From Eledone cirrhosa (lineage: Eukaryota): 64,000 nt of DNA. The stretch covers positions 47,864,001 through 47,928,000 of the forward strand of contig OZ024742.1 in assembly GCA_964016885.1 (NCBI GenBank), written 5' to 3'. The notes under the pieces were generated by a model. It saw only the letters and a program-made list of their open reading frames with translations, did not search any database and was not told the origin of the DNA. How positions within the stretch are numbered: position 1 is the first letter of the stretch; each line of letters opens with the position of its first letter. The position numbers were made by a program, and so were the translations under genes. Positions 7,089 through 64,000 of this stretch are shown here, piece after piece.

Positions 7089-7890
7089 TATATATATATA
7101 TATATATATCATAAAACATGTCTATAGAATCATCAGATAGAATATGTACCAGTTTTATGATATATTGCTCTGATTATTTAATTTATTAACTTGTCTTTGA
7201 GCCACAAAGTGACCCGTTGCAAAACATGTGTATATATGTATATATATATATATATATATATATATATATATATATATATATGTAAACCTTTATATGTAAT
7301 AATCTCCCGTTCGGTTGAGATACAAATTTGGCTGTATTGTGCTGCGCTTTCTAGCAAAAGGCCACCACCCGTAAGCAACTAACCACATTCCTTCTAACCT
7401 GACCGCTGCTACGTCACGATTCTTAGCCATTTTTGAATGTATTCTTGGTGCGATCACTTTGGAAAATTTATTGTCTAAATTTGAGCTAACTTCCTGAGGA
7501 GTCCGGATATCTTAAAATGCGGACGAAACCATGGTCGAGGTTTTTAAATGTGTTCACTTTTCTCCTAGTTTATTTTACACCTAATTCTGTTTAATTGACT
7601 GTATATCTGGACGATTACGCTTTCGAAATATTCGATAAATATTCCGTCGCAGCCAGCGCGAAGGGCTGGTTTCGGTTATTTGTTGGGGATTTCTTCATAG
7701 AAGCCTTATTCTTATAGCTTGGTCTATTCGATTTTTTATATGGTTAATAATGCTAATTGGGAGAGGATATGGTACATATTTTATTTGGTGATTCAATAGA
7801 CATGTTTTATGATATATAGCTCTGAATATTTAATTTATTAACTTTTCATTGAGCCATAAAGTGACCCGTTGCAAAAAACGTGTATATATG
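7089..7890 (+). mobile_element. Non-coding HHR element: about 652-bp partial tandem with a short inverted 5' piece, in (TA)n
   Basis: TGACCCGTTGCAAAA at 7210 and 7862; 7089-7150 is the reverse complement of about 7770-7813; another copy at about 36400-36640. Confidence 0.75.
7488..7542 (+). ncRNA. Type I hammerhead ribozyme, canonical core
   Basis: AACTTC-CTGAGGA-GTCCG(14 nt)CGGAC-GAAA-CCATGG-TC-GAGGTT: 6-bp stem I, palindromic stem III, GUC cleavage triplet. Confidence 0.9.
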
Positions 7891-8180
7891 TATATATATA
7901 TATATATATATATATACATATATATATATATATATATATGTGTAAACCTTTATATATATATATATATATATATATATATATATATATATATATATATATG
8001 TAAACCTTTATATATATATATATATATATATATATATATATATATATATATACATATGTGTGGGTGTGTGTGTGTGTGTGTGTGTGTGTGTATATATTCA
8101 AATGAGATTAATCACCTCATTTACACAGACGAGAAACCTATATATTCTCGACTGTCTTCAAGTCCAGCAGTCGCAAGTGT

Positions 8181-8238
8181 GAGGGGAATCGTCCTGATGA
8201 GGATCAATTAAGTCTGATATGCATTGACGATTCTCCTC
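8181..8238 (+). ncRNA. Decayed type I hammerhead ribozyme
   Basis: 13-bp stem I (GAGGGGAATCGTC/GACGATTCTCCTC), CTGATGA, GATA in place of GAAA, palindromic TGCA, then TT. Confidence 0.7.
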
Positions 8239-8854
8239 CTTTCTTCTGGATATCACGAGAAGTCATTAACCGCGGTAATTTTGCATACTATGGCTTTCTA
8301 AATATTTACCTGTAAACATATCGTGTTTCTCTAGAAATACGAAATTTCTGTACATATCTTTATACAATTATGCCTGAAGCTAAATCCTAATATATATATA
8401 CACATGTGATTGACGGTTGAGAGAAAGGAGTACTCAATACCGAAGTAGAGTATTAATATTCATTTATATTACGGCTAAAAAGCGAGTTCTTGTTTAAATA
8501 CATTGGATCATACACCCCAACTCATTTACCCTGTCATATAAATGAAAGTGGCTAACTTCACAGGTAATTTTAGCTATACATGGACACACATTTTAGATAA
8601 TGTTGTAAATGGAAGCTACTATGATATAGACTACAAAGAGGAGCATGTGTGTGTGTGTGTGTGTGTGTGTATGTGTTTGTGTTTGTGTGTGTGTGTGTAT
8701 GTGTGTGTTTGTGTTTGTGTGTGTGTGTGTGTGTGTGTGCGTGTGTGCGCGCGCGTGTGTGTGTGTGTGTGTGTGTGTGTGTGTGTGTGGGTGTGTGTGT
8801 GTGTGTGTGTGTGTGTGTGTGTGTGTGTGTGTGTGTGTGTGTGTGTGTGTGTGC

Positions 8855-9350
8855 GAATATTTTATATCTTATGTTATACGGTATGTTTTCGAATAAGCAT
8901 AACATTTGGAATGCCTTTTAGCTATGCATATAGAAAAACTGACTGCTTGCGTATAACGAATTCTACATGCATAGCGCGGGACAACTATCAATGCGTGTCT
9001 GGCTCAGGCCATCATCAGTCAGTTTTTCCCCCATCCTGCTCTCTGCTGCAATTTTAAACAGGCGAAAATATAGTTTTTTCGCCTACGAAAGTAGAATTTG
9101 CTTGAAAGCTGAATTAATGTCTTCGCCACAATATGGCTGTATATATAGAAGTATGTGAATTGTATATATCTAATGTTATACAATATGTATACGAATAAAC
9201 ATTTAGAGGGGTCATTTAGCTACGAATAATGAAAAGCTGATGGCCAGCGTCATCTAGAAAATTCCTGCAGAGGTAGCGGGAAACAACTGACGTGTTTCTG
9301 ACATAAGCAATCACCAGAACAATGTTACGCCCGTCCTGCACTCTGCTGGA
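8855..9350 (-). mobile_element. Old, diverged about 299-bp tandem with two decayed hammerheads (8983-9024, 9284-9322)
   Basis: Minus strand: CTGATGA-TGGC ctga GCCA-GACA-CGCA-TT and CTGGTGA-TTGC ttat GTCA-GAAA-CACG-TC; 8855-9050 aligns with 9157-9349. Confidence 0.65.
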
Positions 9351-60745: not shown

Positions 60746-61241
60746 TATAAGAAAATACATAAATATTATATATATATAAATAAAAAGCTGGAAGGGGTAA
60801 ACAAATAGTTGGGAATACGACAAATAATAAATAAATAAATAAATAGATAAAGGTATAAATGTTTATAGCTGATTTAGAGCACTCAACAAGTTTCTGGAGC
60901 AAATAATCATTGAAAATAAACATTAAATCACTCTGTATCTAATTATGCATACATATATATAATTATATACACACACATATATATATATATATATATATAT
61001 ATATATATATATATATATATATATATATATCGTTTCTGAATTTGTTTAGCAAGATTCTTTATCTGAAATCGTGTGTTGAAACCGATATTGTTATACTTTG
61101 GGAGGGTCATGTTGCCAATAAGCAACACACGCACCAGATGCTTTCACTTCAATTTATTATAATAAATTTATAATAAATTTATAAATTTATAAATTTCTGG
61201 TTTGTTGGTTGGTTCCACAACCAGATAGTTGTTTATCTATT

Positions 61242-61284
61242 GTCATAGTTCTTTCGTCACACACTCTGTGACCTCTTCAGTGAC
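61242..61284 (-). ncRNA. Minimal type I HHR in the PLE3 pLTR
   Basis: GTCA-CTGAAGA-G-GTCAC agagtgt GTGAC-GAAA-GAAC-TA-TGAC, sense to the ORF. Confidence 0.8.
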
Positions 61285-61485
61285 TGGGGATTACTTTCTT
61301 TGTTTCTGTGCCTCTCCTTTGTTCTGTCTTACGCCATTTTGTATCTGTGTGTGTGTTGTGTGCTCAGTCTACGCATGCGCCACATCCGGGTGTCTGTGTG
61401 TGTTTATGTTCATTTATTTATTTGTTTATTTACATGTTACTGGTTGGTTGTTTGTTCTATGTATGTGTGTGTTTTCATTTTGTCC

Positions 61486-63605
61486 TTAATTGTAAGTTGT
61501 GATGTTGCTGTTCCACTCATATTTTCTATTTAATTTTGGTTGTAATTCTTTTATGTTTATTGCCTCTGTAATTCGTCTAAACATTGCGTCTTTTCTGTGT
61601 GTAGATTCTATTTTTATTTCTATGTTCTCTAATTTACCCTTGTGTTCTATTTTAGCATGTTGGTAGAGTACATATGATTCTTTACTATCCTGAAGGTCTC
61701 GCCAGTGTTCATTTATCCGTTCCCCTACACTACGAGCTGTCTCACCTATGTACACTATATTTTTGTCTCTACATTGTCCTTCAGTACATCTTATGCTATA
61801 CACTACATTTCTAGTTTACAGTTAATATGGGGGCTTATTTTACAGGTTATACATTTCTTATCTATACATGAGGGTCTTTGAAAAGGGTATGTCTTGCTAA
61901 TAAGTGTTTTTACGGAGGTACCTGGTCTTTCTACTATCTTAATATTGAGTTTATGTTTATTTAGAGCCCTTCTAAATTTGTAAGCTAATTCACCTCCAGG
62001 GGTTGTATCGATGAACATTACATCCTGGTATTTATTGCTATCATACCATGAGTTTATTCTATTAGCCTTGTTGCTAGTTCTTTCTATTCTATTCCAAAAG
62101 TTGCTCCTATACAAGGGGCAGGTCCCATTTGTGTCATTATTTACCATTTTTTCCCATTTGGTTCTGGCTCCTCTATACACTCTGATTTTATCTCTCTGAT
62201 TGTAGCCAGAGAACTGCATACGGTGGATGAAGTATTGTATGTGTCTCTCTAGTTCTTCGGGGTTGCACATGCGGGACACGTTTCTCATCACCCGTACCAA
62301 ATCCGCAATCAGTATGTTGATTTTGGTATGGTCCGAAACGGCCGAGTTTCGGTGGATCAGATGTTTGGAAATCATGGGTTTGGCATAATGGGAATGGAGG
62401 ATTTGTTTTTTCGTTATTAATGGTATGTAACCAGAGTTCTGTGTCTAGTACAGGTAATCGATGGTTGGGGTGTTTACTTGGGTAGTCTATAGTAACTCTA
62501 ATGCTCTGGTGAATGGAATTAGCTATTTGCTGGATGCTTTCCATTGTGTTTTTCTCTAGTTCCTGACCGTTCTCTAGTGGGGATGTCTTAACTACGATGT
62601 TTATATCATCAACGTAGCGGGAGTACATTATCAGGGTTAAGGGGTCTTCTAATTGTTCTTTAAGTTTAAGTTTAAGTCTACTGTCCCACCATACCATGAA
62701 TAAGTTAGCTATGTCGCCTGCAATGCTAACACCAATGGCTGCTCCTTCCTCTTGGGCATATGTATTTCCATTAAATTTGAACATATGTTCCTTAAGGGAT
62801 AGTTTTATGCTGGCCCCTACCGCATGTGCAATTATTTTCTTCAGTTCATCCTGGTTTTCGGGTGTCCGTTCCATCTATCTGTGTGGGTTTTCTTGGCCAT
62901 TGAGGTAATGGTAGGTGGTTTGCCTCTTGTTGGTCTTGTAGGGCACAGGTTGCTAAGGTCATATGTGTCTAGGTAATTATTACTATAGGTAAGTTTAAGT
63001 AGAAGTCCCAGCTCACTGGTATCAATCCCACGGAACTCAACATTGCTCTCACTGATCCTTTTCTACGCATTTCTCCACAGCAAAATCCACGTCAATAGAT
63101 GGATACAGGGACACAACATCCATACTACCTATTATGCAGTTTGTTAGGTCCCTAGATCGGTTACTCACGCAGATTCTGCTAAGGAGGTCCTCCGAGCTGT
63201 CATACATCTGGGGACATTTCAATGATGGGGCGTATGATCAGGGAGAGGAAGTAGGACAGTCTGTAGTTACTAGCAATGTTAGCTCCACAGACTGGCCGTG
63301 TTGGTGGTCCCGCGACAGGGTCACTGCCCGTTTTATGGTCTTTTCGAAGCCCATACAACGCCGGCACGTCATTGTTCCAGAAAGTTGTTGGCAATCCTTT
63401 TGTTGGGCTGCATTATATTCGTCCACATCACCATATGGGCATTGAGGGCTTTTTCTCTATCCTCATGCTCCTGTGGTGTTACCTCTCTTGTGTTAGTGAT
63501 GTGGGGTTGCATTGCCTGGATGTAGTTTGGCAGGCTGTCAACCGACATTCTGCCAGACTTGTCTGTTGGAAAGCATGCTATCTCTCCATTACGAGAGCGC
63601 TGCAC
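61486..63605 (-). pseudogene. PLE3 RT and GIY-YIG polyprotein, frameshifted
   Basis: CFPTDKSGR; LYGLRKDHK; RPVCGA; GSMDVVSLYPSID; QEEGAAIG; YSRYVDD; LPVLD; MFIDTTPGGEL; VYIGETARSVGERINEH. Confidence 0.93.
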
Positions 63606-64000
63606 AATTTAGTATATCTAGATCCGAACTTAGAAAGTATTATAGAACAGTATAGCAAGAAGCATAATAGAATGGAGGCCCAGAAACTGGGAGAAAAATC
63701 TGCAAATGGCTTGCGTAAGCTCATGCAGCGCTCGCGTAATGGAGAGATAGTCTTCAAAATTATAATTATTACTATAGAAATATATATATATATATATATA
63801 TATATATATATATATATATATATATATATATATATATATATATATATATATACGTATATACACATATGTGTGTGTATATGTGTAAGTTTATATATATACA
63901 TATATAAATATATGCTTGTGTGTGTGGGTGTGTGTGTGTGTCTGTATATGTATGTTTCCATGCATGAATGAATACACTAAGCTTTAGATTTAGTAGAATG

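What the first reader, a model, noticed from the sequence alone, without database searches (positions are those of the whole stretch)
7089..63751. Hammerhead ecosystem: about 38 motifs from about 12 families in 64 kb, beside about 4 PLE lineages
Seen: HHR or HHR-like motifs at 7488, 8181, 8983/9284, 9689 (x3), 19171, 27471 (x3), family B (x7), 37462, family A (x13), 59068 (x2), 59230 and 61242 (x3). Most have a self-complementary helix III (CCATGG, TGCA, CGCG, TGATCA, CATATG, CTAG, GTAC, TATATA). Known: such minimal helices typically allow cleavage as dimers, and PLE pLTRs carry HHRs. Inference: a two-tier system in which autonomous PLEs supply RT/endonuclease to many non-coding ribozyme parasites favouring (TA)n. 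If this window is typical, genome-wide HHR numbers would be very high.
Basis: partly seen in the sequence, partly recalled or inferred. Interest (0 to 1): 0.8.

Follow-up and report, generated by a model that had tools for sequence, protein, structure and literature searches.

The report
Genome crowded with Penelope-spread hammerhead ribozymes
This animal genome carries an estimated 280,000 hammerhead motifs (predicted self-cutting RNAs) in Penelope jumping genes and in protein-free repeats, and the repeats' mirror-image insertion pattern shows they likely borrow Penelope enzymes, probably by being copied round a small RNA circle.

Summary
Largely confirmed, and mostly a known system. Of the 38 motifs, 21 pass a type I hammerhead descriptor (shuffles 0.07), 12 are damaged or minimal copies of real families, and 5 are doubtful. 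They come from about 16 insertions. Four Penelope-like (PLE) lineages are present; 10 of the 38 motifs are their own terminal repeats. Four families are short non-coding head-to-tail repeats (retrozymes) with no detected kinship to those PLE ends. An 800-kb genome sample gives 92 motifs/Mb, about 280,000 in all; the window is 3.5-fold richer because of one array. TA repeats lie downstream of 61 of 71 motifs. In the 310-nt family, 27 of 27 two-armed insertions are head-to-head with one long and one short 3' end about 30 nt apart, the PLE 'tail', and both arms share private variants (16 of 16). This points to PLE enzymes copying one RNA, probably circular, from both sides of a break. Cleavage, circles and the helper PLE are untested. 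The PLE-retrozyme pairing is in print as a proposal. This scan found the two-arm pattern before, on other DNA of this genome.

The parts
51040..54287 (-). Family A left arm: 10.5 units of a 310-nt non-coding monomer, 10 intact hammerheads; 3' end 165 nt past the cut site, in (TA)n
54286..55250 (+). Family A right arm: 3.1 units, 3 intact hammerheads; 3' end 134 nt past the cut site, in (TA)n; head-to-head with the left arm, 2-nt overlap
29549..31175 (.). Family B two-armed insertion (unit about 400-450 nt), 4 hammerheads (3 intact); long end left, short end right, both in (TA)n
45620..46451 (.). Family B two-armed insertion, hammerheads at 45891-45933 (-, one core change) and 46227-46269 (+, intact)
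58057..58636 (+). Family B single arm, hammerhead 58325-58367 with one core change
7070..7880 (.). 7488 family: non-coding unit of about 655-680 nt, partial tandem; intact hammerhead 7488-7542 (+); short inverted arm 7070-7149 holds the false motif at 7089
8181..8238 (+). Hammerhead with 13-bp helix I and one change in the second core box; family with a 320-330-nt repeat unit (seen in 1 of 4 copies held)
8983..9026 (-). Possible decayed hammerhead relic, several changes, no other copy found
9574..15333 (.). PLE lineage 1 (RT + C-terminal GIY-YIG; Neptune/Nematis-like), broken, two-armed with partial tandem; three pLTR minimal motifs (9689, 12968, 15148); short end left (114 nt), long end right (161 nt)
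18977..19949 (.). 19171 family: intact-core hammerhead 19171-19228 (-); unit 3.1 kb without PLE coding similarity in the one tandem examined
27411..29332 (.). PLE lineage 4 (Hydra-clade motifs), two-armed, coding remnant 27744-28524 (+); two copies of the non-canonical 27471 motif
32545..33997 (.). PLE lineage 2, short two-armed insertion with endonuclease remnants and two broken hammerheads; left arm runs 67 nt further than the right
37333..38561 (-). PLE lineage 3 (Neptune-like) 3' fragment; pLTR hammerhead near 37462-37501 with one helix I mismatch
58742..59177 (.). 59068 family: two short head-to-head arms, each with a damaged hammerhead; coding status unresolved
59230..59290 (-). Intact-core hammerhead with long helix II; family without PLE coding similarity upstream in 20 of 20 loci, unit not defined
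60382..60737 (-). PLE lineage 4 pLTR fragment, third copy of the 27471 motif
60936..63750 (.). PLE lineage 2 (RT + GIY-YIG, CX4CxxC linker), broken, on the - strand with a small inverted piece; intact pLTR hammerhead 61242-61284

Best explanation
The window holds four Penelope-like retroelement lineages and at least four protein-free hammerhead repeats (non-LTR retrozymes), and the repeats are likely inserted by Penelope enzymes, probably from a small circular RNA. Shown: the motifs, the families, the TA targets, the head-to-head arms, the two fixed 3' ends and the shared variants. Inferred steps: (1) an array is transcribed and the hammerheads cut it to monomers, probably as dimers through the palindromic helix III; (2) the monomer is ligated to a circle; (3) a PLE protein, probably a dimer, cuts both strands of a (TA)n tract; (4) each DNA 3' end primes at its own fixed AU-rich site on the same RNA, 26-37 nt apart in family A; (5) both reverse transcriptases run round the template for a variable number of turns; (6) the two cDNA ends join at short overlaps and each templates the other's second strand. 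This gives a head-to-head insertion with one long and one short end. The PLEs use the same route for their own RNAs.
For: Motifs far above chance. Family A: 4,177 exact copies of one 43-nt variant; 1,058 long ends and 1,267 short ends joined to TA. Among 181 listed ends on one chromosome, 53 of 53 divergent pairs are one long plus one short; 75 ends were unpaired. At sequence level 27 of 27 two-armed insertions do the same, including 11 of 11 in the 13 insertions picked by the hammerhead alone; 5' junctions fall at scattered phases. Neither end is the ribozyme cut site. Both arms share locus-private variants in 16 of 16 informative loci of 25 (chance 0.21 per locus), fixed in every unit. The short-end arm is the longer one in 13 of 27 and the shorter in 14, against a simple fold-back. 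PLE lineages 1-4 show the same two end classes in TA. PLE partial tandems, inverted copies, a 30-40-bp tail at one end and TA targets are described in PMC8557442. A purified PLE cuts and extends both strands and starts at two internal sites that delimit the tail (PMC11167929). The A and B hammerheads match the axolotl HHR_Amex2 build, U-U at the base of helix II with a short helix III. The circular A monomer folds at z=-4.6.
Against: No cleavage, ligation or circle was observed. No helper was identified: A, B, 7488, 8181 and 19171 show no meaningful alignment to the pLTRs of the four PLE lineages (z<4, except two AT-rich low-complexity matches), unlike the Xenopus cases in the 2026 preprint. 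Tail lengths differ by family (about 30 nt in A; about 45, 60, 55 and 108 in PLE1-4), and none matches A. One relative of the 59230 family shows two short ends (L116); single-armed A insertions exist (1 of 13). Seven of 27 junctions carry extra bases instead of overlap, and no null was computed for the 14 of 27 with 2 nt or more. Long arrays show variants in blocks of units (L090), so some length arose after insertion. In vitro, the Anolis PLE does not need hammerhead cleavage, prefers unprocessed RNA and showed no strand bias between the two start sites. Eight of nine predicted Xenopus retrozymes did not cleave in vitro.
Confidence: 0.7

Rival explanations
1. PLE enzymes mobilise the repeats, but from uncleaved linear multimer transcripts of a few homogeneous source arrays; no circle is involved and the hammerhead is dispensable for insertion.
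For: The Anolis PLE uses unprocessed RNA, and hammerhead mutants still insert. One source array active in a cell would also give both arms the same haplotype.
Against: Ten haplotypes were seen in 25 loci, each fixed in all units of its locus, up to 27 units. This needs a one-monomer bottleneck per lineage or very efficient homogenisation. Animal retrozymes accumulate mainly as circles.
Confidence: 0.17
2. The non-coding families are only 5'-truncated pLTR or 3'-UTR pieces of coding PLEs, later expanded by DNA recombination into minisatellites.
For: Not excluded for 59068 and 59230. In the random sample 8 of 74 motifs had PLE coding similarity within 1.2 kb upstream. The 2026 preprint proposes local tandem expansion.
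Against: A, B, 7488 and 8181 have short closed units with no PLE similarity. Family A arrays are dispersed, near-identical and always end at the same two phases in TA, with multi-unit arms on both sides, which unequal crossover at each site would not produce in a very young family.
Confidence: 0.08
3. One reverse transcription followed by fold-back copying of the new cDNA makes the second arm.
For: It explains shared variants and head-to-head geometry without a second priming event.
Against: Either arm can be the longer one (13 against 14), and the second arm ends at a fixed phase after a number of units unrelated to the first arm.
Confidence: 0.05

Closest known systems
Metazoan non-LTR retrozymes (Cervera and de la Pena 2020, PMC7229834; passages and Discussion read)
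   Same: Short AT-rich tandem units with type I hammerheads, no coding capacity, co-resident PLEs; A and B share the HHR_Amex2 build; circRNA copying by a PLE is proposed there.
   Different: In the passages read, no head-to-head two-arm insertions, fixed paired ends, TA targeting or cephalopod data ('inverted', 'opposite', 'octopus': 0 hits). RNA was shown there, not here. The highest count there is about 120,000 in axolotl; the estimate here is about 280,000 in 3.0 Gb, by a different descriptor and including PLE motifs.
Retrozymes as non-autonomous PLE derivatives (Li, Clavereau and Pollet 2026, 10.64898/2026.07.22.740005; parts 1-3 of 5 read, supplements closed)
   Same: The same two-tier model, from co-occurrence and pLTR homology.
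   Different: Based on vertebrates and on sequence kinship. Here no kinship to resident pLTRs was found; the evidence is the insertion footprint.
Endonuclease-bearing PLEs (Neptune, Nematis, Hydra) and their pLTR hammerheads (PMC4209133 parts 1-2 of 4; PMC8557442 passages; PMC11167929 parts 1-2 of 4)
   Same: RT plus C-terminal GIY-YIG, minimal hammerheads in pLTRs, partial tandems, inverted 5'-truncated copy, tail at one end, TA targets, two internal RT start sites.
   Different: Those texts do not assign the two start sites one to each end of the same insertion. Tails here run from about 30 to 108 nt. The Hydra-like lineage lacks a canonical hammerhead, although these are called universal in Hydra.

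Membership tests
Type I hammerhead ribozyme | Both conserved core boxes, helices I-III and an NUH site | tested here: met
   21 window motifs; shuffles 0.07. Not met for 27471 x3, 8983, 9284.
Type I hammerhead ribozyme | Self-cleavage, as monomer or dimer | not testable with these tools
   Needs in vitro transcription.
Non-LTR retrozyme (families A, B, 7488, 8181) | Short head-to-tail units each carrying a type I hammerhead | tested here: met
   A 310 nt; B 400-450, 7488 650-680, 8181 320-330 nt (8181 from one copy).
Non-LTR retrozyme (families A, B, 7488, 8181) | No protein-coding capacity; dispersed and multicopy | tested here: met
   No PLE protein hit over these units; 4,177, 1,663 and 894 exact-pattern copies for A, B and 7488.
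Non-LTR retrozyme (families A, B, 7488, 8181) | Expressed as linear and circular monomer RNAs | not testable with these tools
   Needs RNA data; see Tried and rejected.
Non-LTR retrozyme (families 19171, 59068, 59230) | Short closed unit | tested here: inconclusive
   19171: 3.1-kb non-coding unit in one tandem. 59068 and 59230: no consistent period; 0 of 20 loci each with a PLE hit upstream.
EN+ Penelope-like elements (lineages 1-4) | [quoted passage not shown] | tested here: met
   Pfam RVT_1 and GIY-YIG on 900- and 775-aa frames and on window fragments of lineage 2. The 1241-aa lineage 2 frame gave no Pfam hit when scanned whole. Lineage 4: 782-aa frame assigned by motifs.
EN+ Penelope-like elements (lineages 1-4) | pLTR with hammerhead, partial tandems, inverted copy, tail | tested here: met
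   the hammerhead is non-canonical in lineages 1 and 4.
Hydra clade (lineage 4) | RWK, DKT and CxCX5C motifs | tested here: met
   All three read in the 782-aa frame against the definition in PMC8557442; no tree was built.
Neptune clade (lineages 2, 3; lineage 1 Neptune or Nematis) | CX2-5CxxC linker and placement on an RT tree | tested here: inconclusive
   Linker present in 2 and 3, reduced in 1; no reference RTs were on hand for a tree.
Non-autonomous derivative of a named resident PLE | Sequence kinship with that PLE's pLTR | tested here: not met
   against the four window lineages only; other PLE families of the genome were not tested.

The most novel reading that the evidence does not exclude
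PLE integration is an obligate double-priming reaction: a protein dimer holds one circular RNA, and the two ends of a (TA)n break each take a different fixed start site, so both enzymes roll round the same circle. This single rule would explain the PLE tail, the inverted copy and second-strand synthesis. Viroid-like RNA circles exploiting it would have made this one of the most hammerhead-rich genomes reported.
Probability: 0.4. Interest if true: 0.8.

Novelty: new variant of a known kind. Interest (0 to 1): 0.6.

Why it matters
That PLEs copy retrozyme circles into DNA has been proposed since 2014-2020 from co-occurrence and shared ribozymes. Here the insertions themselves carry the PLE footprint, in over a thousand young copies with exact start sites, so the step can be tested in an existing in vitro system. 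The strict pairing of one long and one short end on arms of one haplotype offers a concrete reading of the PLE tail and inverted copies, which PMC8557442 lists as open. The census (about 280,000 motifs, many families) is a large natural library of hammerhead variants.

Tried and rejected
Rfam scan: the 150 rows listed of 401 are weak matches, nearly all microRNA models on TA/TG repeats; no hammerhead family was among them, and 251 rows were not shown. DNA search with the family A unit returned nothing, most likely because very common words are skipped; patterns were used instead. Sequencing runs: no RNA holder listed; the four runs laid were contigs of unknown kind and say nothing on expression. 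Reading the 27471 motif with the upstream first core box and a long helix II, or as type III, leaves no helix I or III: rejected. The 3.2-kb period of the 59230 family proved to be a local duplication, not a PLE unit. Classical L1-type twin priming on one linear RNA was rejected, because the 5' end of the long arm does not sit at the short arm's start phase. A helper search by pLTR alignment found none. Not done: a systematic long/short classification for families other than A, a conservation count of the octamer-like box, and a genome count for the 8181 family. For these only the rows printed are cited. Two strands were mistyped (both should be minus); the 53 pairs are unchanged, but the adjacency tally of 5 convergent neighbours is one too high.
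Full report
Setting. The window lies on a 379-Mb contig of a 3.0-Gb, AT-rich animal genome full of (TA)n tracts. Earlier notes of this scan call the host a cephalopod; I did not test that.

Are the motifs real? A type I descriptor (both core boxes, helices I-III, NUH) finds 21 intact motifs in the window against 0.07 in 30 local dinucleotide shuffles, and 3 more with one core change (a stricter version gave 18 and 22). 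Thirteen belong to one insertion and seven to three insertions; in all there are about 16 insertions from 11 families.

Coding tier. tblastn with 11 natural PLE frames from this genome maps four lineages in the window: 10152-15333, 27744-28524, 32550-33624 with 61030-63749, and 37878-38561. All window copies are broken. Elsewhere, lineage 1 has many near-identical 900-aa frames and lineage 3 has 775-aa frames with RT and GIY-YIG; only the best 150 candidates were scored in each search. Lineage 2 has a 1241-aa frame, but its scored copies are more decayed. Lineage 4 has a 782-aa frame with the Hydra motifs. The motifs 9689 x3, 61242 x3, 37462 and 27471 x3 are the pLTR motifs of these four lineages (11 of 20 loci of the 27471 family have coding similarity about 480-640 nt upstream).

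Non-coding tier. Family A is a 310-nt unit (4,177 exact copies of one hammerhead variant). Family B is 400-450 nt (1,663 copies; periods in 22 of 60 copies). The 7488 family is 650-680 nt (894 copies) and the 8181 family 320-330 nt (1 of 4 copies held shows the repeat). The 19171 family (3,930 copies) has a 3.1-kb unit without coding similarity in the one tandem read. The 59068 (1,537) and 59230 (313) families show no PLE hit upstream in 20 of 20 loci each, but no defined unit, so they stay open. A, B and 8181 each align with a 467-nt family found in the sample (z 10.6, 25.8, 5.2), while none aligns meaningfully with the four pLTRs.

Is the window typical? Eighty 10-kb stretches on a fixed grid (60 on the four largest contigs) hold 74 intact-core motifs in 799.8 kb, in 39 of 80 stretches; three shuffles gave 0, 0, 0. 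That is 92.5 per Mb (bootstrap 65-123), or about 277,000 (195,000-367,000) genome-wide. Two hits look spurious by eye and were not removed; the grid is not a formal random draw. The window is 3.5-fold above this because of array A. A (TA)6 tract lies within 350 nt downstream of 61 of 71 motifs, upstream of 26 of 71, and after 25.8% of random points (P=1e-25). Same-family opposite-strand neighbours are divergent in 19 of 21 cases. Published counts I saw: about 120,000 in axolotl and about 5,000 in mussel, and thousands of minimal motifs in Xenopus and coelacanth.

Insertion anatomy, the informative part. Family A 3' ends fall at two phases after the ribozyme cut: 163-167 (long) and 126-139 (short), each running into TA; patterns count 1,058 and 1,267 such junctions. 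Of 181 ends listed over 211 Mb, 106 form 53 divergent pairs, all one long plus one short (P=1e-16 against free pairing). Of 29 insertions read base by base, 27 are two-armed and all obey the rule, one is single-armed and one is cut by a gap. Sixteen of these were chosen from the end lists; among the 13 chosen by the hammerhead alone the tally is 11 of 11. The inner junctions are at scattered phases: 14 of 27 overlap by 2 nt or more, 6 by 0-1, and 7 have extra bases. In 25 loci (two dropped for short arms; two single-unit changes treated as later mutations), 16 carry non-reference variants, always in both arms and all units. Printed rows for other families show two end classes as well, with long/short pairs in L142, L118, L186, L103, L108, L098 and in the window's own lineage 1, 2, 4 and B insertions; L116 is a short/short exception. 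This was not counted systematically.

Mechanism. PLE insertions are known for partial tandems, an inverted 5'-truncated copy, a 30-40-bp tail at one end and microsatellite targets (PMC8557442, passages). A purified PLE protein, predicted to be a dimer, cuts and extends both strands and starts at two internal sites that bound the tail (PMC11167929, parts 1-2 of 4). Family A shows this footprint without coding for anything, so it most likely uses a PLE protein (inference, about 0.9). Shared private variants across arms and units point to one monomer template; a circle explains multi-unit arms whose ends are not the ribozyme cut (inference, about 0.7). Against this: no RNA evidence, no matched helper, the Anolis enzyme's preference for uncleaved RNA, and block variants that show later expansion in long arrays.

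Comparison and novelty. The two-tier idea is published: PMC7229834 (passages and Discussion), PMC7761336 (passages), PMC4209133 (parts 1-2 of 4, which already suggests circular templates for PLE tandems) and the 2026 preprint (parts 1-3 of 5; supplements closed and may bear on this). Searches for a cephalopod hammerhead survey and for double priming in PLEs listed nothing beyond these; the library lacks most subscription papers. What goes beyond the texts read is the density, the footprint evidence on retrozymes and the strict long/short pairing on one template. I stated this reading before opening the scan's notes; several earlier reports on other windows of this genome reach the same view of family A, which is repetition and not support.

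Verdict. Observation partly confirmed; interpretation partly supported and largely known; new variant of a known kind; interest 0.6.

Noticed in passing
window family B units (e.g. 30800-30900), 8100-8180; L098 467-nt family: An octamer-like box (label recalled from snRNA promoters) and a TATA-like run lie upstream of the hammerhead in B, the 8181 family and the 467-nt family. PMC7761336 says retrozymes seem to lack promoters. Conservation was not counted.
   Followed up: partly
window 27471, 29133, 60444; L286-L305, L329: The Hydra-like PLE keeps helix I, the second core box, a palindromic helix III and the cleavage triplet, but no first core box, in over 20 copies including one with an intact frame. 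It may be a variant ribozyme, a substrate half for trans cleavage, or a relic.
   Followed up: partly
window 9689, 12968; L206-L213: Young intact lineage 1 PLEs carry a minimal hammerhead with U4 changed to C and only a 3-bp helix I.
   Followed up: partly
L326 (19171 family): A 3.1-kb non-coding unit with internal repeats and PLE-type ends; 3,930 exact-pattern copies. It looks like a long non-autonomous PLE passenger, not a short retrozyme.
   Followed up: partly
random sample L096-L175: The 467-nt family gave 11 of 74 motifs and family A none; PLE coding similarity covers 4.4% of the sample with 11 queries.
   Followed up: no
window 46277-47286 (-): A non-PLE reverse transcriptase fragment (Pfam RVT_1, E=0.00094; resembles CRE-like non-LTR elements from recall) abuts the right arm of a family B insertion.
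   Followed up: no
window 3422-3608, 17829-18018, 18295-18479, 44453-44839, 50763-50930: A dispersed repeat of about 190 bp, 80-90% alike, also inserted in L326 and L095; SINE-like.
   Followed up: no
window 23057-24024 (-): Decayed frames that read like an AP-endonuclease of a LINE (recall); no Pfam hit.
   Followed up: no
L093 3839-7561 (-): Lineage 2 PLE protein has a long Asn/His/Thr-rich low-complexity insert before the RT.
   Followed up: no
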